From a virus, in IMG/VR virus record IMGVR_UViG_3300035670_000027: a stretch of 64,000 nucleotides of DNA. The stretch is one strand, 5' to 3'. Each line of letters opens with the position of its first letter. Position 1 is the first letter of the stretch. This document shows positions 8,341-15,500 of the stretch, piece by piece. The notes under the pieces were generated by a model that saw nothing but the letters and a program-made list of their open reading frames with translations, did not search any database and was not told where the DNA came from. The position numbers and the translations under genes are program-made.

Positions 8341-9189
8341 CTAGTCGATAGATACAACTTTTGGAAGATAAGGATCAGTTTTATCTTCACCACGCTCATA
8401 TCCAACATAACCTCTTGGATTACAGACGATGCGAGTATTGCCAACCATGTAGTCAAACTCATGGTGAGTGTGACCATGTGTCCACAATTTGATTTGTGGG
8501 CGGTCAAGAATAAACTCACTTAGATCGGAACTGTAACCACCGTTCATCAATGTGTCATTCTCATACATTGGCTTGGTCGAAAGTTTGCTAGGCGAATGAT
8601 GACCAACGACAACATACTTTGCAGTAGGATCGTTTTCAATCACCACTCGGATATAGTCAAGCATTTTCTTGTGATCCTCAACCGCATCTTCAGGACAGAA
8701 TCTTGCAACTCTCTCATGAAACTTGCCTTCATCATCTTTGAAATTGACCACACGATTGCTATTGCGAACAATGCGAAAGTCATTCATTCTACTCTTAATA
8801 TGATACAGAGTGAGTGAATCTTCTTTGTTCATATCTGTCCAAAGAGTACCACCAATGAATGTCACATCATCGATTTTCACACATGATTTATCAAGAAAAA
8901 CAATTCCTCTTTCAGCACATGCTTCACCTAACAGTTTGTGTGATTCTGCAAAGTCACCATTGTAATGTTCATGGTTACCCATGACATAGATGACATGCTT
9001 GTACTCTTTCTTGCAGTTATCAAGAAAGTCTAGAAAGCGATCCGTTTTGTGTGTGCCATACAAATCTGATGCAACCATAATGTCGCCAGATAGAATAAGC
9101 ACATCTGCACCTTCGGGATTGACTGGATACCAGTCACCGAATTCAAGATGAATGTCGCTAGTGATTGCAATTTTCATGATTAACTCCAT
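8341..9189 (-). CDS. calcineurin-like metallophosphoesterase
   Basis: DIH, GD, GNHE, HH and HGHTH motifs. Confidence 0.9.
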   Translation of the reverse strand: MELIMKIAITSDIHLEFGDWYPVNPEGADVLILSGDIMVASDLYGTHKTDRFLDFLDNCKKEYKHVIYVMGNHEHYNGDFAESHKLLGEACAERGIVFLDKSCVKIDDVTFIGGTLWTDMNKEDSLTLYHIKSRMNDFRIVRNSNRVVNFKDDEGKFHERVARFCPEDAVEDHKKMLDYIRVVIENDPTAKYVVVGHHSPSKLSTKPMYENDTLMNGGYSSDLSEFILDRPQIKLWTHGHTHHEFDYMVGNTRIVCNPRGYVGYERGEDKTDPYLPKVVSID

Positions 9190-9199
9190 TTACTACAGT

Positions 9200-9276
9200 T
9201 GGTACGGATGGCGGGACTCGAACCCGCAGGACTCAGATTTTAAGTCTGATATGTATACCGATTCCATCACATCCGC
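9200..9276 (-). tRNA. tRNA-Leu(TAA), short variable arm
   Basis: Cloverleaf; loop CTTAAAA; encoded CCA. Confidence 0.9.
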
Positions 9277-9284
9277 AAAATTAC

Positions 9285-9313
9285 ATTATACTAAAATTTG
9301 CTCTGAATGTCAA
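9285..9313 (-). promoter_or_regulatory. consensus sigma70 promoter
   Basis: TTGACA-17-TATAAT. Confidence 0.8.
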
Positions 9314-9440
9314 TGAACCAGTCGCAAGAGGTGGAAAAAGTTTTCATGGTATAACAACCTAGAAAGTCTCCTGTGTATATAAGCAATGCCGTGAAAATCA
9401 TCATGGCAAATATGATTGCCCAATCTTTTATTTTTTTCAT
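9291..9440 (-). CDS. 49-aa TM peptide
   Basis: Hand-translated MKKIKDWAIIFAMM...; AAGGA SD. Confidence 0.55.
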   Translation of the reverse strand: MKKIKDWAIIFAMMIFTALLIYTGDFLGCYTMKTFSTSCDWFIDIQSKF

Positions 9441-9453
9441 ATCACTATCCTTA

Positions 9454-9540
9454 TGGCGGAGAGTATAGGATTCGAACCTATGCGCCTCTTTCGAAACGAC
9501 GGATTAGCAATCCGCTACATTACCACTCTGTCAACTCTCC
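9454..9540 (-). tRNA. tRNA-Ser(GCT)
   Basis: Cloverleaf with long variable arm; CCA. Confidence 0.95.
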
Positions 9541-9545
9541 ATGAT

Positions 9546-9619
9546 TGGAGCGGCTAGCGAGAATCGAACTCGCATCCGAACCTTGGCAAGGTCCCGTTCT
9601 ACCATTTAACTATAGCCGC
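9546..9619 (-). tRNA. tRNA-Gly(GCC)
   Basis: Cloverleaf; CCA. Confidence 0.95.
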
Positions 9620-9624
9620 ATGTT

Positions 9625-9714
9625 TGGCGGAAGCGGTGAGATTCGAACTCACGGTGCCTTTCGACACGACAGTTTTCAAGACTGTTGCAATAAACCGGGC
9701 TCTGCCACGCTTCC
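9625..9714 (-). tRNA. tRNA-Ser(TGA)
   Basis: Cloverleaf with long variable arm; CCA. Confidence 0.95.
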
Positions 9715-9719
9715 TTATT

Positions 9720-9796
9720 TGGTGCCTCAGGCGGGAGTCGAACCCGCAAAATCCAGTTTCTAAGACTGACATGTATACCAATTCCATCACCGAGGC
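9720..9796 (-). tRNA. tRNA-Leu(TAG), short variable arm
   Basis: Loop CTTAGAA; CCA. Confidence 0.9.
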
Positions 9797-9797
9797 T

Positions 9798-9872
9798 TGG
9801 TGCCGAATGGTGGGTTCGAACCACCGACTTACGCCTTATCAAGACGCCACTCTACCGCTGAGTTAATCCGGC
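9798..9872 (-). tRNA. tRNA-Ile(GAT)
   Basis: Cloverleaf; CCA. Confidence 0.95.
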
Positions 9873-9944
9873 AAAACTTTATTGTACATTACCACGAATC
9901 CACTTCCAGTATTCTTCTGCTGACATGTGATTCTCCTTTATGTA

Positions 9945-10020
9945 TGGTGCCACCTGTTGGAATCGAACCAACTTCCTCGGCTCTTCAGACCGGTGCAATG
10001 ACCACACTTGCTCAAGTGGC
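9945..10020 (-). tRNA. tRNA-Phe(GAA)
   Basis: Loop CTGAAGA; CCA. Confidence 0.9.
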
Positions 10021-10022
10021 TT

Positions 10023-10098
10023 TGGTGCGCCTAGTAGGATTCGAACCTACGATCCATCGATTATGAGTCGATTGCCTTGACCGCTTGGCTATGGGCGC
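10023..10098 (-). tRNA. tRNA-CAT (probably Ile2)
   Basis: Loop CTCATAA in a CGA/TCG stem, like bacterial Ile2; identity inferred. Confidence 0.85.
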
Positions 10099-10099
10099 A

Positions 10100-10174
10100 T
10101 GGTACCCGGTGACGGGATTGAACCGCCGACATTCGCCTTGTAAGGGCGCTACTCTACCGCTGAGTTAACCGGGC
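10100..10174 (-). tRNA. tRNA-Val(TAC)
   Basis: Cloverleaf; CCA. Confidence 0.95.
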
Positions 10175-10178
10175 AAAA

Positions 10179-10254
10179 TGGGGTAACCTATGAGGATCGA
10201 ACTCATACTATCTCGGTCACAACGAGAGGTGCAGACCACTACACTAAGGTCACC
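10179..10254 (-). tRNA. tRNA-His(GTG)
   Basis: G-1:C73 pair; CCA. Confidence 0.95.
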
Positions 10255-10259
10255 ATTGT

Positions 10260-10336
10260 TGGCTACGGCGGAGGGATTCGAACCCCCAACATACAGTTTT
10301 GGAGACTGTCGTTCTGCCAGTTGGAACTACGCCGTA
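10260..10336 (-). tRNA. tRNA-Trp(CCA)
   Basis: Cloverleaf; CCA end. Confidence 0.95.
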
Positions 10337-10343
10337 TCGTTTT

Positions 10344-10418
10344 TGGCTGGGGCACAAGGATTCGAACCTCGGAATGCCGGAATCAAAATCCGGTGCCTTA
10401 CCGCTTGGCGATACCCCA
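10344..10418 (-). tRNA. tRNA-Gln(TTG)
   Basis: Cloverleaf; CCA. Confidence 0.95.
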
Positions 10419-10421
10419 ATG

Positions 10422-10892
10422 TTATGCGGCTACTGCGTACTTGAATCTGTCTGCCGCATGTGTCGCCGCCCATGCATGTGGCTTCACTAAAGGAATCACA
10501 TTGCATGTACCACGAATGTAGCCTATTGCTTCGTTGATCACACATGAAGAACCATGCATTTCATTTGGATTGATATCTAAATGAACTTCAACATGACGCC
10601 CTTCTAGTACATCTGCAAGTTTCAAATACATTTCACTTGCTTTGTACACTTCATTCATTAGTCTGAATCTTGGTCGATCAATCTTTTGGTCGTAATCTCT
10701 TTCACGATCTACTTGACCAAAGAGTTTGCATCCATTGTTGCCGTTGATATGCACTACGATTGCAGTAATGTAATCAGCATACCACACTTCACCTAAGCGG
10801 AATCGTTCTGAATCGCAACCTAGGTAAATCTTTGTTTCTGCCGACTGTCTTGCAATGTATTCTCTTACTTCTTCTAGGTTCAATTTTCTCAC
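10422..10892 (-). CDS. RNase H-like protein (DUF458-type)
   Basis: IYLGCDS, RLMNEV, VHLDIN and AATHAAD motifs. Confidence 0.75.
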   Translation of the reverse strand: MRKLNLEEVREYIARQSAETKIYLGCDSERFRLGEVWYADYITAIVVHINGNNGCKLFGQVDRERDYDQKIDRPRFRLMNEVYKASEMYLKLADVLEGRHVEVHLDINPNEMHGSSCVINEAIGYIRGTCNVIPLVKPHAWAATHAADRFKYAVAA

Positions 10893-10916
10893 GATCCACT
10901 CCTTTCGTATATTTAA

Positions 10917-10992
10917 TGGAGCGGGTAGTGGGTATCGAACCCATCTACTTCAGTTTGGAAGACTGACATGTATCCATAAACACCTTACCCGC
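10917..10992 (-). tRNA. tRNA-Gly(TCC)
   Basis: Cloverleaf; CCA. Confidence 0.95.
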
Positions 10993-11404
10993 AATACTCT
11001 ATAAACTCTTCGTACATTTTGTCGCCAAGTTTGTTGGCTTCGATTTCCCATGGATGATCTTCATAAGGTACAACATCCGAGTTGACCTTGCGTGACTTCC
11101 ATTTGGTTAATTCTTCGTTGATTTCATTTCTGACAAACTGACGAACATGAACCATCTCATGCGCCATTGTTTGAATTTGAGTGTTTTGATCATCTTCTTT
11201 GGCAATTTCCATGATGAAATAGCGTGGTTCTCCGACCACATTATAGTCATCGACATATACTGCCCCATAATCACTACTGTTTGATACAAACTTCACACGG
11301 ATATGCAAATTGGCAATCATCTGTGGAGAGAACAATCTCTCGGCAAAAAAATTCAAAGCCTTTTTCTGTTTCGATTTTATTCGTGAACCATAGAGATTTA
11401 GCAT
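10985..11404 (-). CDS. putative zinc metallopeptidase
   Basis: AHEMVH (HExxH) and PWEIEA motifs. Confidence 0.8.
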   Translation of the reverse strand: MLNLYGSRIKSKQKKALNFFAERLFSPQMIANLHIRVKFVSNSSDYGAVYVDDYNVVGEPRYFIMEIAKEDDQNTQIQTMAHEMVHVRQFVRNEINEELTKWKSRKVNSDVVPYEDHPWEIEANKLGDKMYEEFIEYCG

Positions 11405-11446
11405 ATCAACCTCCTTTCATCACATATTTATCCATTACAATATTTC

Positions 11447-11523
11447 TGGTCGGAGATGCAGGATTCGAACCTGCGACCCTCTGCTCCCAAAGCAGATGCG
11501 CTACCAGACTGCGCTAATCTCCG
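11447..11523 (-). tRNA. tRNA-Pro(TGG)
   Basis: Cloverleaf; CCA. Confidence 0.95.
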
Positions 11524-11527
11524 AAAT

Positions 11528-11601
11528 TGGTGCCCTTGGTCTGAATCGAACAGACAGTCACGGATTACAAAACCGTTGGTTTACCACTAACCGACAAGGG
11601 C
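11528..11601 (-). tRNA. tRNA-Thr(TGT)
   Basis: Cloverleaf; CCA. Confidence 0.9.
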
Positions 11602-12531
11602 AATGTTACTCATTTGCTTTTCGACCATCTCAACATACTGGTCTTTTACTTTCTCGCCATTGTTCTTGTATAAGTCACAAGCACAATAGGCACAATTCTT
11701 ACCGACAACCAAATAATTCAGTACAATGTGTTTATAATTCTGATTCATGCTTTCGTACTTAAAAAACTCAGTTACATCAACACCGTTCTTCCAAAGCAAA
11801 TCAATTGAATTGAACACTAACGACCTTTGGTCGAAATGCTTCAAACCGTTCACTTGCAAAAACTCCATGTACTTTTCAGGATTCAATCGTATCAGACTAT
11901 ACAGTATGCTATAAACTGTTCCTAATTTATGCGACAACTCTCTTGAAATAAACAAGTCTGCAACATCGCTAACTAAACCATATTTTGATACATCGTTAAT
12001 TGCACCTTTGTCCCAAAGAAAGTTCCAGTCATTTCGAATCATGTAGTCTAGCAAGTCTCTAAGTCTACTAGGTTCTCCATCATTTGTCAAGTATGAATAC
12101 CTACCACATTTGTAATCTAGCATGTAATACGACTGAGCATTTTCCTCATCATATAACACATAGTCTAGCACATCTACCGATGAAAACTCAAAGATGGTAG
12201 AGTTTAAAACAATTGTTCCTTCTTTGACACCACATGTGCCAATGAAGTCTGGAAAGAATGGCTGATACTTCTCTTGAAAAATGCCAGTCTTACCTTTGAA
12301 ACATTTTTTTGCTACTTGATATCCTAAATAAAAGATATCAGTCTTTTCTAAAATCTCATATCTGAGATCATCGAATTCTAGCATTGTGTGATAACGATAT
12401 GGAACACCAACGCCTTTGTAGTAACACTTGTTACCTTTTGAAACTCTGCCATTAATGTGTTGAATATCATCATCAATACTCAACTCATTTATCTGCACAC
12501 CTAACGAATCATAAATCGGAACTATAGTCAT
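11587..12531 (-). CDS. hypothetical protein inside the tRNA array
   Basis: 314-aa ORF with SD; CAYCAC motif. Confidence 0.8.
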   Translation of the reverse strand: MTIVPIYDSLGVQINELSIDDDIQHINGRVSKGNKCYYKGVGVPYRYHTMLEFDDLRYEILEKTDIFYLGYQVAKKCFKGKTGIFQEKYQPFFPDFIGTCGVKEGTIVLNSTIFEFSSVDVLDYVLYDEENAQSYYMLDYKCGRYSYLTNDGEPSRLRDLLDYMIRNDWNFLWDKGAINDVSKYGLVSDVADLFISRELSHKLGTVYSILYSLIRLNPEKYMEFLQVNGLKHFDQRSLVFNSIDLLWKNGVDVTEFFKYESMNQNYKHIVLNYLVVGKNCAYCACDLYKNNGEKVKDQYVEMVEKQMSNIALVG

Positions 12532-12543
12532 ATGTTATCCTTT

Positions 12544-12618
12544 TGGTGGTGATGGCAGGAGTCGAGCCTGCAACCTCTGCCGTATGAAGGCATTGCACTA
12601 CCATTGTGCTACATCACC
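12544..12618 (-). tRNA. tRNA-Met(CAT), probably elongator
   Basis: Cloverleaf; CCA. Confidence 0.85.
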
Positions 12619-12625
12619 TATACTT

Positions 12626-12809
12626 AGCCATTAGTGAGAGTACTGCCATATCCGTTTAATGCCTTTAGATAAAACGGCATCTCTTACCTTAGTAACCATC
12701 TATCGAGGCTGACTAATTCCTCATCTAGGCGATGGCGGTAGAGAGCGGTATTCCCTCGGCAGTCAGGTCGCTAGTCAAGCACCTCGCTTTCGGACTCTCA
12801 CTAATGGCT
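12626..12809 (-). ncRNA. ~180-nt structured RNA closed by a 16-bp stem
   Basis: Perfect inverted repeat AGCCATTAGTGAGAGT at 12626-12641 / 12794-12809; nested internal stems. Confidence 0.7.
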
Positions 12810-12879
12810 CCAGAGGTAGGGATCGAACCTACGACACACGGATTAACAGTCCGCTGATCTACCGCTGATCTACTCTGGA
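12805..12879 (-). tRNA. tRNA-Asn(GTT)
   Basis: Cloverleaf; CCA. Confidence 0.95.
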
Positions 12880-12880
12880 A

Positions 12881-13112
12881 CAGGTGCTTCCTCTCTGCGG
12901 CGGTAATTATAGTCTATGTGGTCTTTGCTTTCGCTATACATAAACCTTCCACCCGCTCCTCGACCAGAGAGGATTGTCGCATTGCCAGCGCCGGTTCGGT
13001 TTGACCTGCCCTTGTGAGGCAATCTCATTTTCCATGAGATGGAACCACCCATGAGTAACGAACTCATTTCTCCTTCCTGCGGGTCACAGTAGCCAAGCGT
13101 TACCTCGGCGGG
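12881..13112 (-). ncRNA. ~230-nt multi-hairpin RNA, possibly manA-motif-like
   Basis: GC-rich, at least six stems and a candidate pseudoknot; family assignment from memory of size and context only. Confidence 0.65.
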
Positions 13113-13114
13113 GT

Positions 13115-13191
13115 CGGTAGCAGAGGCAGGATTCGAACCTGCGATTCTCGGCTTATGAGACCAAGCGGATAGACCTCTTCCATACTCTGCG
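13115..13191 (-). tRNA. tRNA-fMet-like (CAT), genomic end CCG rather than CCA
   Basis: C1:U72 mismatch; loop CTCATAA. Confidence 0.8.
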
Positions 13192-13196
13192 AAACT

Positions 13197-13271
13197 TGGC
13201 GGTCTCAACGGGAATCGAACCCGTCCCTGCGCCGTGACAGGGCGCTATACTAACCGATATACTATGAGACC
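13197..13271 (-). tRNA. tRNA-Asp(GTC)
   Basis: Cloverleaf; CCA. Confidence 0.95.
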
Positions 13272-13281
13272 AATATTTAGT

Positions 13282-13310
13282 ATTGTACAACAAAAAACTT
13301 GATTTGTCAA
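13282..13310 (-). promoter_or_regulatory. internal sigma70 promoter in the tRNA array
   Basis: TTGACA-17-TACAAT. Confidence 0.75.
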
Positions 13311-13311
13311 G

Positions 13312-13385
13312 TGGTAGGGGCACGGAGAATCGAACTCCGGTTAATAGGTTAAAAGCCTACTACTTTGCCACTAAGTTATACCCCC
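13312..13385 (-). tRNA. tRNA-Lys(TTT)
   Basis: Cloverleaf; CCA. Confidence 0.95.
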
Positions 13386-13393
13386 ACAAAATC

Positions 13394-13468
13394 TGGCACC
13401 ACCTGAAGGAATCAAACCCTCAACTCAAGGTCCGTAGCCTAGCGTGATATTCATTTCACTAAGGTGGT
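13394..13468 (-). tRNA. tRNA-Arg(ACG)
   Basis: Cloverleaf; CCA. Confidence 0.9.
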
Positions 13469-13475
13469 ATAAAAC

Positions 13476-13553
13476 TGGAGTGAGGAGTGGGATTCGAACC
13501 CACGATACAAGAGTTTTGCAGGCTCCGCCATTTGACCGCTCTGGCATCCTCAC
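13476..13553 (-). tRNA. tRNA-Cys(GCA)
   Basis: Cloverleaf; U73; CCA. Confidence 0.95.
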
Positions 13554-13558
13554 ATGAA

Positions 13559-13634
13559 TGGTGGAGAGTATCGGGTTCGAACCGATGACCTCCTGCTTGC
13601 AAAGCAGGCATTCTCCCAACTGAACTAACTCCCC
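13559..13634 (-). tRNA. tRNA-Ala(TGC)
   Basis: G3:U70 pair; CCA. Confidence 0.95.
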
Positions 13635-13740
13635 ATATTGAAGCACACCGACAGTATCGAAACTGCCCACACCGCCGAAAGACGATGCTAGGTCCACTCC
13701 CAAGGCCGGCGCCGTCTAGCCTTAGTGTGCTTCAATATGG
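13633..13740 (-). ncRNA. ~108-nt tRNA-like RNA with a 16-bp terminal stem and no anticodon arm
   Basis: CCATATTGAAGCACAC inverted repeat; D-like, V-like and TTCGAT T-like hairpins. Confidence 0.7.
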
Positions 13741-13825
13741 TGGGTGGTGATGGTAACGCTCCACGAGGCAACTTCCGATCTTATTATGCCGACGGTTTTA
13801 CAGACCGCTGACCGGGGCACCACCC
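13738..13825 (-). tRNA. aberrant D-armless tRNA-Tyr(GTA)
   Basis: 8-bp acceptor, GCGGT-CTGTAAA-ACCGT anticodon arm, long variable arm, 4-bp T stem, A73-CCA. Confidence 0.75.
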
Positions 13826-13833
13826 ATAAACTT

Positions 13834-13970
13834 CCATTTGAAATGCTGACTGCACTATTTGCTATACCTCATATGCTTTATCTAGAATTACATCTTATCG
13901 GTATAGTTACTCAGGCGTTGCACCGCCCATGGCTTACAATCAGCATATCAAATGGTGCCCACCGGGCACC
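13834..13970 (-). ncRNA. ~120-nt three-way-junction RNA preceded by a mini-hairpin ending CCA
   Basis: CCATTTGAwATGCTGA inverted repeat extended to about 20 bp; two internal stems. Confidence 0.65.
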
Positions 13971-13977
13971 GAAACTT

Positions 13978-14154
13978 TTACAATTTATCAGCAATCTCAA
14001 CTTCGAAACACAATCGATTCGAAATTGTTCTTGCCACTTGAATCCAAAACAAACTTCTTTCAGATTCTAATTTATCGAAAACAAACTTTACGATTTTGAC
14101 ATTATCAAAGTCGCACTCTTTTTGAATCAACTCAACAGTCTTATCAACTTTCAT
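13978..14154 (-). CDS. small hypothetical protein
   Basis: Start MKVDKTV with GAGGA SD. Confidence 0.6.
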   Translation of the reverse strand: MKVDKTVELIQKECDFDNVKIVKFVFDKLESERSLFWIQVARTISNRLCFEVEIADKL

Positions 14155-14175
14155 TTGTTTCCTCTCAAAATTAAG

Positions 14176-14250
14176 TGGTACACCGTAGGGGAATCGAACC
14201 CCTCTTACCGCCGTGAAAGGGCGGTGTCCTAACCGATAGACGAACGGTGC
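14176..14250 (-). tRNA. tRNA-Glu(TTC)
   Basis: Cloverleaf; CCA. Confidence 0.95.
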
Positions 14251-14251
14251 A

Positions 14252-14327
14252 TGGCCTGCCCGGCAGGAATCGAACCTGCGACCCATTGCTTAGAAGGCAA
14301 TTGTTCTATCCTCTGAACTACGGGCAG
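14252..14327 (-). tRNA. tRNA-Arg(TCT)
   Basis: Cloverleaf; CCA. Confidence 0.95.
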
Positions 14328-14342
14328 AAAAGACTTTCCAGA

Positions 14343-14355
14343 TTGTTAAAGAGCG
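14343..14355 (-). promoter_or_regulatory. rrn-type boxA antitermination element
   Basis: CGCTCTTTAACAA between the promoter and the first tRNA. Confidence 0.75.
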
Positions 14356-14376
14356 ATTTCTCAACCAACAAAAGAG

Positions 14377-14430
14377 AGTATACTCTACATCTCATCGGTT
14401 GTCAACACCTAGTGTTGTTTTCCTACGACA
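14377..14430 (-). promoter_or_regulatory. sigma70 promoter of the tRNA array with TGTTG-N8-CGACA box
   Basis: TTGACA-17-TATACT; box at 14413-14430. Confidence 0.8.
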
Positions 14431-14433
14431 CAC

Positions 14434-14469
14434 AAACAAAAACCCCCAACTTTTTTAGGGTTGGGGGTC
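14434..14469 (-). terminator. intrinsic terminator (attenuator)
   Basis: GACCCCCAAC-loop9-GTTGGGGGTT followed by TTTGTTT. Confidence 0.85.
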
Positions 14470-14495
14470 TTTGGTATTAGTGAGTACTTACTAAC

Positions 14496-14609
14496 TTATC
14501 CATTGACCCCCATTCGATCCTCATTGCATAGAATGGCAGGTGTGCGTGACCATGCAAATGGCATTGCACTCTTTCCTGTTCTATACTGGAGGTGGGTTAT
14601 GGATAACAT
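14496..14609 (-). CDS. 37-aa leader peptide containing all 20 amino acids
   Basis: MLSITHLQYRTGKSAMPFAWSRTPAILCNEDRMGVNG; AAGGAAG SD; 3' codons complementary to the terminator arm. Confidence 0.75.
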   Translation of the reverse strand: MLSITHLQYRTGKSAMPFAWSRTPAILCNEDRMGVNG

Positions 14610-14663
14610 TGAAAATACTTCCTTTTGAAAAAATTTATTTATCATCTTCTATATATGCAAACT

Positions 14664-14870
14664 TCACTCTGAATTCTTCATTTTGATATAATTTTTGTTT
14701 AAAAATCCTAACAAAAATAGTGCCGCTAACCATTCAAAGAATCCAAATGCAATTGTAAGACCAAACAATGTATTAAGTGACCAGATAAAAATAAATGGTG
14801 CTACAAGAATTGCTATGATTGCTACGATTAAAAGGGTGATTAAAACACCGCCGCCTAAATTTTCTTTCAT
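14664..14870 (-). CDS. small membrane protein
   Basis: Two TM segments. Confidence 0.7.
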   Translation of the reverse strand: MKENLGGGVLITLLIVAIIAILVAPFIFIWSLNTLFGLTIAFGFFEWLAALFLLGFLNKNYIKMKNSE

Positions 14871-15052
14871 TTAAAAAACTCCTCATCATCGAAATTATCT
14901 TCGTCAAAGTCTTCCGGATTGAAATTCTTCAACTTCTGTTTTGCCTTTAGTCGATCTTTCTTATTCTCTTTGGGTTGCTTCTTAGGCTTGCCAACCTCTT
15001 CTTCTTCATAGAACTCACGAAAACTCTTGTACTTTTTATCCGTCTTAGACAT
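14867..15052 (-). CDS. small charged hypothetical protein
   Basis: Coupled ORF. Confidence 0.7.
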   Translation of the reverse strand: MSKTDKKYKSFREFYEEEEVGKPKKQPKENKKDRLKAKQKLKNFNPEDFDEDNFDDEEFFK

Positions 15053-15053
15053 G

Positions 15054-15500
15054 TTAGTTTACTCTTTCTCCTACAAACAGAGATGGAATTGCCTCCTCTA
15101 CAACTTTTCGTGTGATGCCTTTGTATTTTAGTTTCTTGTCCTTGATCATCAATACAAGTTTCGCTTCTTCTGGAGATACAGTTTCAAGCATTTGAATAAA
15201 CATCTGCTCTTTCTTTGCTCTAGTCAAATTGTTTGGTATGCTCTTTACGAAATACTTAAACTTCTTGATCTCTTTAGGTAGTCTATTATAGCCCCAATTT
15301 TCTGGCATGTCAAGTGGTTTGTATGGGGGATCGCCTGCTGGTAGATCAATCTCTACATCAACACGAAACACCAATTCAAACACATCCCGAAAGCCAGGAA
15401 CAACTTTTGTCAATTGACGAATTGCATCAACCTTTTTACTTGCCGGTAATTCCTCAATGTGCTTGAGTAGTTCCGGGAAAGTCATTTTGCTAACATCCAT
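15054..15500 (-). CDS. conserved T4-like hypothetical protein
   Basis: LPxGxPPY and FIQMLE motifs; position after rnh. Confidence 0.8.
   Translation of the reverse strand: MDVSKMTFPELLKHIEELPASKKVDAIRQLTKVVPGFRDVFELVFRVDVEIDLPAGDPPYKPLDMPENWGYNRLPKEIKKFKYFVKSIPNNLTRAKKEQMFIQMLETVSPEEAKLVLMIKDKKLKYKGITRKVVEEAIPSLFVGERVN

What the first reader, a model, noticed from the sequence alone, without database searches (positions are those of the whole stretch)
14434..14645. All-20-amino-acid leader peptide attenuator upstream of the phage tRNA array (candidate sensor of the whole tRNA pool)
Seen in sequence: a 37-codon minus-strand ORF (14609-14496, SD AAGGAAG), too short for the ORF track, encodes MLSITHLQYRTGKSAMPFAWSRTPAILCNEDRMGVNG. 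It contains every one of the 20 amino acids and uses 31 different codons. Repeated residues mostly switch isoacceptor: Leu TTA/CTC/CTA, Ser TCC/AGT/TCA, Arg AGA/CGC/CGA, Ile ATA/ATT, Gly GGA/GGG. Its last codons supply TGGGGGTC (14505-14512), which is perfectly complementary to GACCCCCA in the 5' arm of an intrinsic terminator about 25 nt past the stop (GACCCCCAAC/GTTGGGGGTT plus U-tract, 14434-14469). The palindrome at 14476-14495 forms the apex of that alternative hairpin. A late-promoter-like ATAAATA lies just upstream (about 14636-14642), and the 26-tRNA array lies directly downstream. Established: in trp/his-type attenuators, a ribosome reaching the stop masks the antiterminator, while stalling frees it. 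Inference: instead of a run of one codon, this leader samples nearly the whole code. Loss of almost any charged tRNA (starvation, or cleavage by host anticodon nucleases) would then allow read-through into a full replacement tRNA set. Caveats: stalls at the last codons (N, E, D, V) may still cover the antiterminator, and a separate sigma70 promoter downstream of the terminator bypasses this control.
Basis: partly seen in the sequence, partly recalled or inferred. Interest (0 to 1): 0.96.

Follow-up and report, generated by a model that had tools for sequence, protein, structure and literature searches.

The report
All-amino-acid leader gating phage tRNAs
Just upstream of this uncultured T4-like phage's 25 tRNA genes sits a 37-codon leader gene that uses all 20 amino acids and ends inside an RNA hairpin competing with a transcription terminator; related phages keep this design, which probably lets more transcription run into the tRNA genes whenever ribosomes decode slowly.

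Summary
There is an SD plus a 37-codon ORF (14609-14496, minus strand) with all 20 amino acids and 31 codons. Its G-run is complementary to the 5' arm of an intrinsic terminator. A sigma70 promoter and 25 (not 26) tRNA genes follow.

In the window alone, an all-20 ORF is within chance (1 of 214 small ORFs). Relatives decide the case:
- A composition-blind DNA pattern recovered 24 distinct cassettes in seven lineages. Every lineage has members directly upstream of tRNA genes.
- Five lineages keep 19-20 amino-acid kinds at 14-31% peptide identity between most lineages (homology-aware P 0.001-0.02 for three).
- All five indels are in frame.
- The antiterminator is kept through compensatory changes.
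- The window leader of 25 array tRNAs.
- A cassette heading only Leu, Ser and Tyr tRNAs has a Leu/Ser/Tyr-rich leader.

Best reading (0.7): a ribosome-mediated attenuator. It terminates when the ribosome reaches the last seven codons in time and reads through when decoding lags.

Caveats: the late promoter is not supported. Asp and Val lie in the blind zone. A promoter after the terminator bypasses control here, though not in three relatives.

No expression data and no published account were found. This scan has noted the same device on other phage DNA.

The parts
14618..14624 (-). Shine-Dalgarno AAGGAAG, 8 nt before the leader ATG
   Evidence: The same heptamer sits 10 nt before the ATG in lineage B (L009). 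It is weakened to AAGGTAG in L001-L003.
14496..14609 (-). Leader ORF: 37 codons plus TAA, with all 20 amino acids and 31 distinct codons
   Evidence: Homologous ORFs occur in 24 distinct cassettes. Five within-lineage indels are all multiples of three. There is no Pfam hit and no protein-database homologue.
14496..14606 (-). Long imperfect hairpin folding the 5' half of the ORF onto its 3' half; it includes CCCA paired with UGGG of the G-run. Candidate anti-antiterminator or pause structure.
   Evidence: Fold of 14472-14625 gives -45.7 kcal/mol, z -3.6. Two G:C-to-A:U / U:A-to-A:U double changes against L001 keep it paired.
14549..14562 (-). Mid-ORF hairpin built from the Pro (CCA) and Trp (UGG) codons (the M-P-x-x-W motif)
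   Evidence: The equivalent UGCCA...UGGCA hairpin is kept in lineages B, C and D. Lineage C keeps it with GNRA loops and a compensatory A:U-to-G:C change.
14505..14512 (-). 5' strand of the antiterminator (UGGGGGUC), inside codons 33-35 of the leader
14462..14512 (-). Antiterminator hairpin: G-run paired with the C-run, with apex hairpin 14476-14494. The stop codon lies in its 5' strand.
   Evidence: -22.8 kcal/mol, z -6.7. Own-partner pairing beats cross-lineage partners in all but 16 of 5040 permutations.
14434..14470 (-). Intrinsic terminator: 12-bp stem sharing the C-run with the antiterminator, followed by a U-tract
   Evidence: -17.5 kcal/mol. It is 100% identical in L001-L003.
14377..14405 (-). 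Sigma70-type promoter TTGACA-17-TATACT, downstream of the terminator; it bypasses the attenuator
   Evidence: It is conserved in lineages A, B and most of D, and absent in L109, L100 and L088.
14343..14355 (-). boxA-like CGCTCTTTAACAA between the promoter and the first tRNA
   Evidence: Conserved in lineages A, B and D. Also noted by another first-stage reading.
9200..14327 (-). Array of 25 tRNA genes covering 19 amino acids (no tRNA-Tyr)

Best explanation
This is a ribosome-mediated (leader-peptide) transcription attenuator placed in front of the phage's tRNA array.

How it would work:
1. Transcripts coming from upstream carry a translated 37-codon leader.
2. The leader's last codons hold a G-run that pairs with the C-run of the terminator's 5' arm. 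This antiterminator hairpin forms before the terminator's 3' arm is made.
3. If the ribosome has reached the last seven codons or the stop by then, it covers the G-run. The terminator then folds and the transcript ends.
4. If the ribosome lags anywhere in codons 1-30, the antiterminator holds and RNA polymerase runs on into the tRNA genes.

The leader uses nearly every amino acid once or twice and of the 25 array tRNAs. Slow decoding of almost any codon class would therefore raise tRNA transcription, which gives feedback on overall decoding capacity.

What is shown: the anatomy, its conservation, covariation of the antiterminator, in-frame conservation of the ORF, and the compositional completeness.

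What is inferred: translation of the ORF, the kinetic competition, and the direction of the response.
For: 1. Anatomy is present in the window.
2. A DNA pattern that says nothing about ORF length, composition or tRNAs found 24 distinct cassettes in seven lineages. Five of 14 viral hits and 25 of 35 metagenome hits belong to the family. Every lineage has members directly upstream of tRNA genes. In 185,579 cellular genomes the same pattern gave 8 hits, none near a tRNA.
3. Antiterminators of -18 to -28 kcal/mol (z -3 to -6.9) compete with terminators of -16 to -23 in all seven lineages. Flanks of the G-run and C-run covary. In lineage C, 21 pairs are 100% paired, 4 pairs show changes on both sides, and none is broken.
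4. The ORF is kept: SD or a promoter placed for a leaderless start, no internal stops, and 5 of 5 indels in frame. Window versus L001 shows 6 non-synonymous to 1 synonymous changes, four of them RNA-compensatory. So the open frame is conserved rather than a protein sequence.
5. Composition: lineages A, B, C and E have 20 kinds and D has 19, at 14-31% identity between most lineages (B and D share 62%). P is 0.001-0.02 each for A, C and E even with every residue shared with another lineage held fixed.
6. The leader of 25 array tRNAs; none of 15,809 control windows reaches that (mean 15.2). In L100 it of 26.
7. L088/L103: promoter, a leader in which 11 of codons 2-16 are Leu, Ser or Tyr, terminator, then exactly 5 Leu, 4 Ser and 1 Tyr tRNA genes. 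The modelled switch point falls right after that block.
8. L100, L088 and L109 have no promoter between terminator and tRNAs.
Against: - There is no expression or ribosome data; no RNA run is listed for this DNA.
- In the window a strong sigma70 promoter lies between the terminator and the array. The switch can therefore only add read-through transcription to a constitutive source.
- No clear promoter lies directly upstream of the leader, and the late-promoter-like site is not conserved.
- Asp and Val occur only in the seven blind codons. Lineage D lacks Val or Phe although L112, the one lineage-D array long enough to check, has both tRNAs. Two lineage-C variants lack Asp. Completeness is therefore not absolute and is not fully explained by sensing.
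- The window has a Tyr codon in the leader but no tRNA-Tyr gene.
- A relative (L007) has the array with promoters only and no leader.
- At thermodynamic equilibrium the terminator wins for most ribosome positions. The model therefore depends on kinetics that I cannot test.
- The G-run and C-run were part of the search pattern, so their presence in lineages C to G is by ascertainment.
Confidence: 0.7

Rival explanations
1. The ORF encodes a functional micro-protein at the end of the upstream operon. The hairpins are just its mRNA's 3' structure and terminator, with no regulatory role.
For: The ORF is kept open with in-frame indels. It is translationally coupled to the upstream MazG-like gene in lineage B through an ATGA overlap. 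M-P-x-x-W and M-G motifs recur.
Against: Peptide identity between most lineages is only 14-31%. The 90%-identical pair shows 6 non-synonymous to 1 synonymous changes. The recurring motifs coincide with RNA stems: CCA pairs with UGG, and the G-run pairs with the C-run. There is no Pfam or protein-database relative. A micro-protein does not explain all 20 kinds, the constant position before tRNA arrays, or the Leu/Ser/Tyr match in L088.
Confidence: 0.07
2. It is a structured non-coding RNA (a small RNA or a 3'-end stability/processing element). The open frame is incidental or unimportant.
For: Strong folds are predicted (z -3.6 to -6.9) with compensatory changes. Lineages C and G are stand-alone promoter-to-terminator cassettes followed by another promoter. 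Attenuated leader transcripts are known to act in trans in other systems (rnTrpL, PMC6614838).
Against: All 24 distinct cassettes keep a start codon, an uninterrupted frame of 23-42 codons and a stop at a fixed register in the hairpin. Five of five indels are multiples of three. Amino-acid completeness is a property of the reading frame, not of the RNA. No Rfam family matches.
Confidence: 0.1
3. It is a constitutive insulator. The terminator simply ends the upstream operon so that the tRNA array runs from its own sigma70 promoter. The alternative hairpin is fortuitous.
For: In the window and in lineages A, B and most of D, a strong promoter follows the terminator. L007 has a plain terminator plus promoters at the same place.
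Against: L100, L088 and L109 have no promoter after the terminator, so a constitutive stop would silence their arrays. The antiterminator is conserved with covariation. This reading does not explain the leader ORF or its composition.
Confidence: 0.08

Closest known systems
Leader-peptide attenuators of enterobacterial amino-acid operons (trpL, hisL, leuL, thrL, pheL; the multivalent ilvGMEDA leader)
   Same: It has a short translated leader, an antiterminator and a terminator that share one strand, and an ORF end or stop placed so that a finishing ribosome covers the antiterminator. The leader's codons name what the downstream genes supply.
   Different: It controls tRNA genes, not enzymes. 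Instead of a run of one to three amino acids it samples 18-20. With no ribosome the model gives read-through, not super-attenuation. There is no Rfam leader match. In this window a promoter follows the terminator.
pheST attenuator (pheM leader) of E. coli (from my own knowledge)
   Same: Leader-peptide attenuation applied to a gene of the translation apparatus.
   Different: It senses one amino acid and regulates a synthetase, not tRNA genes.
Translation-stress uORF attenuators: whiB7 of mycobacteria (PMC10274678) and antibiotic-induced leaders such as mef/mel and yxjB (PMC4335068, PMC6851288)
   Same: Ribosome stalling in a short upstream ORF switches off a terminator, so the element reports impaired translation rather than one metabolite.
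   Different: Their targets are a transcription factor or resistance genes. No compositional completeness has been described for those uORFs. No sequence relation was tested or expected.
T-box riboswitches
   Same: They link the tRNA/aminoacylation state to antitermination of translation-related genes.
   Different: A T-box binds one uncharged tRNA directly and needs no ORF. There is no T-box match here, and here the reading frame is conserved.
Composition-matched and all-amino-acid leaders before phage tRNA arrays noted earlier in this scan (unpublished AI notes)
   Same: Same device: a leader ORF plus a switchable terminator ahead of tRNA blocks, with the leader written in the amino acids of the tRNAs that follow. 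T-even-like freshwater phages carry all-20 leaders.
   Different: Those notes concern other genomes. Here I link the two forms through one shared 3' module (G-run, stop five codons later, C-run terminator) found in both the all-20 leaders and the Leu/Ser/Tyr leader of L088.

Membership tests
Leader-peptide (ribosome-mediated) transcription attenuator | Short ORF with translation start signals in the transcript upstream of the regulated genes | tested here: met
   SD AAGGAAG lies 8 nt before the ATG. The ORF is kept in 24 distinct cassettes with in-frame indels only.
Leader-peptide (ribosome-mediated) transcription attenuator | Intrinsic terminator between the leader ORF and the regulated genes | tested here: met
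   12-bp stem plus U-tract at 14434-14470. Present in all seven lineages.
Leader-peptide (ribosome-mediated) transcription attenuator | Antiterminator that is mutually exclusive with the terminator | tested here: met
   The two share the C-run. The antiterminator is -22.8 kcal/mol against -17.5 for the terminator. Covariation is shown.
Leader-peptide (ribosome-mediated) transcription attenuator | A ribosome at the ORF end masks the antiterminator, and a ribosome stalled earlier leaves it free | tested here: met
   Masking model on the transcript truncated after the C-run: P(antiterminator) is about 1 for A-site codons 1-29, 0.7 at codon 30, and about 0 for the last seven codons and the stop. 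This is a model, not a measurement.
Leader-peptide (ribosome-mediated) transcription attenuator | Leader codons correspond to what the regulated genes supply | tested here: met
   The leader has 20 amino-acid kinds and of 25 array tRNAs. The L088 Leu/Ser/Tyr leader precedes Leu, Ser and Tyr tRNAs.
Leader-peptide (ribosome-mediated) transcription attenuator | The terminator is the only path from promoter to regulated genes | tested here: not met
   In the window TTGACA-17-TATACT lies at 14405-14377, after the terminator. The feature is met in relatives L100, L088 and L109.
Leader-peptide (ribosome-mediated) transcription attenuator | Structure that sequesters the antiterminator when the leader is not translated (1:2 hairpin) | tested here: inconclusive
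   A long ORF-internal hairpin with two compensatory changes exists. The truncated-transcript model still gives the antiterminator without a ribosome.
Leader-peptide (ribosome-mediated) transcription attenuator | Read-through shown to depend on translation of the leader | not testable with these tools
   This needs a reporter, an in vitro coupled system or Term-seq. No RNA run is listed.
Rfam amino-acid operon leaders (Trp, His, Leu, Thr, Phe leaders) | Match to the family covariance model | tested here: not met
   There is no such hit at E up to 1 in window 9000-15200, nor in L100, L104 or L095.
T-box riboswitch | Match to RF00230 (specifier loop and T-box sequence) | tested here: not met
   No hit at E up to 1.

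The most novel reading that the evidence does not exclude
Selection keeps the leader a near-pangram so that loss of almost any charged tRNA switches on a replacement tRNA set. Such loss could come from starvation, host shut-off, or cleavage by host anticodon nucleases. The cassette would then be a damage sensor for the whole decoding system and part of phage counter-defence. The same module can be re-written for tRNA subsets, as in the Leu/Ser/Tyr version.
Probability: 0.35. Interest if true: 0.95.

Novelty: new variant of a known kind. Interest (0 to 1): 0.86.

Why it matters
How phages regulate their tRNA arrays is largely unknown. I found no published case of tRNA genes controlled by leader-peptide attenuation. 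A leader kept by selection to contain every amino acid would be a new sensing logic for a classical mechanism: it would read overall decoding capacity rather than one metabolite. It would explain how a phage matches tRNA supply to need, and it links to the arms race around tRNA-cleaving defences. It also gives a short, portable part of about 180 nt that can be tested directly in reporter or cell-free systems.

Tried and rejected
- DNA similarity to cultured phages: no real match for the window leader or for lineages B, C and E. The Bacillus phage hits are 38-nt chance matches.
- Protein search with the 49-residue extended ORF: no candidate. The upstream in-frame ATG at 14645 was rejected as the start, because all three differences in the extension are non-synonymous against L001 and lineage B aligns at the SD-proximal ATG.
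- No whole genome is held for this window.
- Sequencing runs: no RNA holder is listed, so I laid no reads.
- Equilibrium folding with a masked ribosome and the complete terminator gave 'terminator' for most positions, except codons 1-8 and 11 in the window. I judged this the wrong model for a kinetic switch and replaced it with the truncated-transcript model.
- Idea that lineage D lacks Val or Phe because its array lacks those tRNAs: rejected, since L112 has both.
- Idea that leader codons are chosen to be read by array tRNAs under strict wobble: not supported, because the share of codons read is no higher than in control windows. Only the breadth of tRNAs called stands out.
- Position swaps of residues (Ser/Thr in lineage A, His/Tyr in lineage C) as composition-level compensation: left open, because the same changes are also RNA-compensatory.
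- tRNA-Tyr search in the window using relatives' genes: nothing found.

Full report
**The locus.** The window comes from an uncultured T4-like phage. Its RNase H is 56% identical to that of Methylophilales phage Melnitz. On the minus strand the order of features is as follows:
- a DUF6433 gene, then two small ORFs;
- SD AAGGAAG (14624-14618);
- a 37-codon ORF (14609-14496);
- a small hairpin;
- an intrinsic terminator (14470-14434);
- a TTGACA-17-TATACT promoter (14405-14377);
- a boxA-like motif;
- 25 tRNA genes (14327-9200).

The one correction is that there are 25 tRNA genes, not 26, and none for Tyr.

**Chance in the window alone.** All 20 kinds in 37 codons is rare per ORF: 7 of 14,665 windows of real ORFs, and 0.2-0.4% of random peptides. 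But the window holds 214 small ATG ORFs, and this is the only one with 20 kinds. One such ORF per window is expected by chance, so the window alone proves nothing.

**Finding relatives.**
- The neighbouring DUF6433 protein brought in 76 viral contigs.
- L001-L003 carry a 90%-identical cassette.
- L009 carries a diverged one: a 42-codon ORF overlapping the stop of a MazG-like gene (ATGA), with the same SD and again all 20 kinds.
- L007 has the array but no leader.
- I then searched with a DNA pattern that specifies only ATG plus a G-run, a C-run and a G-run with a T-tract. The second scan also required a stop five codons after the ATG. The pattern says nothing about ORF length, composition or tRNAs.
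- It returned 14 viral hits, 35 metagenome hits and 8 cellular-genome hits.
- Five viral and 25 metagenome hits form a family of 24 distinct cassettes in seven lineages, A to G. Every lineage has members directly upstream of tRNA genes.
- None of the 8 hits in 185,579 cellular genomes is near a tRNA. The link to tRNA arrays is therefore not an artefact of the pattern.

**RNA switch.**
- In all seven lineages the stretch from the G-run to the C-run folds into a long imperfect hairpin of -18 to -28 kcal/mol (z -3 to -6.9). Its 3' strand is the 5' arm of the terminator, which itself scores -16 to -23 kcal/mol.
- The stop codon always lies in the hairpin's 5' strand, and a small apex hairpin follows it.
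- The bases flanking the two runs differ between lineages but stay complementary. Own partners beat swapped partners in all but 16 of 5040 permutations.
- Within lineage C, 21 pairs are paired in every sequence. Four pairs changed on both sides, none is broken, and slid controls give no such changes.
- In the window lineage, four of the seven substitutions against L001 are two compensatory doubles in a long ORF-internal hairpin.
- The recurrent M-P-x-x-W motif is a CCA/UGG hairpin, kept in lineages A to D.

**The ORF is under selection as an open frame.**
- All cassettes keep a start, an uninterrupted frame and the stop register.
- The five indels seen within lineages are 3, 3, 3, 6 and 6 nt long.
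- The peptide itself is not conserved. Identity is 14-31% between most lineages (B and D share 62%), and the closest pair shows 6 non-synonymous to 1 synonymous changes.
- Lineages C, E, F and G have a strong promoter ending 6-9 nt before the start, which suggests leaderless mRNAs. This is inference.

**Composition.**
- Lineages A, B, C and E have 20 kinds in 36-42 codons. Lineage D has 19, and two lineage-C variants have 19. Chance gives about 15.
- I held fixed every residue that any other lineage shares at the aligned position and redrew the rest. P(at least as complete) is then 0.004-0.02 for A, 0.001-0.005 for C and 0.01-0.02 for E, under three different backgrounds. The product is below 1e-6.
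- The rare residues (Cys, His, Tyr, Phe) sit at different positions in different lineages.
- The window leader of the 25 array tRNAs under strict wobble. None of 15,809 equally long windows of the phage's ORFs reaches that (mean 15.2, maximum 22). L100 of 26.

**An independent case.**
- L088/L103 is a 142-kb soil phage contig with promoter, a 23-codon leader and terminator. Six bases later come exactly five Leu, four Ser and one Tyr tRNA genes, and then genes on the other strand.
- Eleven of codons 2-16 of its leader are Leu, Ser or Tyr. Twelve of its 23 codons are read by the array's tRNAs, against a mean of 4.3 in controls.
- It shares the 3' module of the all-20 leaders.
- The leader's composition thus follows the tRNAs behind it, as attenuation logic predicts.

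**Mechanism.**
- I masked a ribosome footprint at each A-site codon and folded the transcript as it exists before the terminator's 3' arm is made.
- The antiterminator forms with probability about 1 for codons 1 to N-8. The probability is about 0 for the last seven codons and the stop.
- In L088 the switch point falls directly after the Leu/Ser/Tyr block.
- Without a ribosome the antiterminator forms, except in L088. Termination therefore requires a ribosome that keeps pace with the polymerase.
- In the window the sensing zone is codons 1-30, with 18 kinds. Asp and Val occur only in the blind zone. In lineage B all 20 kinds lie inside the zone.
- With the whole terminator present, equilibrium folding favours the terminator. 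The decision must therefore be kinetic, which I cannot test.

**Limits.**
- In the window a promoter after the terminator bypasses the switch. L100, L088 and L109 lack that promoter, so the terminator is the only gate there.
- The ATAAATA site is not conserved.
- Completeness is not absolute.
- There are no expression data, and no cultured phage carries the element.

**Known systems.**
- The device works like the amino-acid operon attenuators, but it matches none of their Rfam models and does not match the T-box model.
- Functionally it is nearest to the multivalent ilv leader and to translation-stress uORF attenuators such as whiB7 (PMC10274678).
- Full-text searches found no account of tRNA genes under leader-peptide control.
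- Earlier unchecked notes of this scan describe the same device in other phage genomes. I reached my reading before seeing them.

Noticed in passing
window 14343-14355 (-): CGCTCTTTAACAA, close to the rrn boxA consensus, lies between the sigma70 promoter and the first tRNA. It is conserved in lineages A, B and D, including L109, which has lost the promoter. It may recruit Nus-type antitermination for the untranslated array.
   Followed up: partly
window 9200-14327 (-): The array has 25 tRNA genes for 19 amino acids and no tRNA-Tyr by ARAGORN, Rfam or similarity to relatives' tRNA-Tyr. Relatives L100 and L112 do have one.
   Followed up: partly
window 13635-14175 (-): The spacer between tRNA-Glu and tRNA-Ala is 541 nt here but 216 nt in L001. 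The extra DNA holds a small ORF and a terminator-like hairpin at 13970-13954. It may be an insertion.
   Followed up: no
window 15285-15313 (-): A perfect TTGACA-17-TATAAT promoter lies inside the DUF6433 gene. It could be the source of the transcripts that reach the leader.
   Followed up: no
L095:375-595 (+), and the same stretch in L099, L101, L104, L107, L115, L119: In lineage C, a second promoter after the attenuator is followed by a conserved spacer of about 220 nt before tRNA-Thr. It has no Rfam match and no convincing ORF.
   Followed up: partly
L103:11866-12255 (+): The 142-kb phage contig with the Leu/Ser/Tyr cassette also carries a tmRNA gene.
   Followed up: no
L089:4000-4210 (+): A stand-alone cassette (promoter, 26-codon leader with 15 kinds, switchable terminator) lies downstream of a long ORF that resembles a periplasmic phosphate-binding protein by eye (not searched). 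It is followed by another promoter and a 109-residue ORF, with tRNAs only about 800 nt further on.
   Followed up: no
L007:6210-6480 (+): This relative has the same gene order but no leader: a plain terminator, then two tandem sigma70 promoters before the array. The leader is therefore optional within this phage group.
   Followed up: partly
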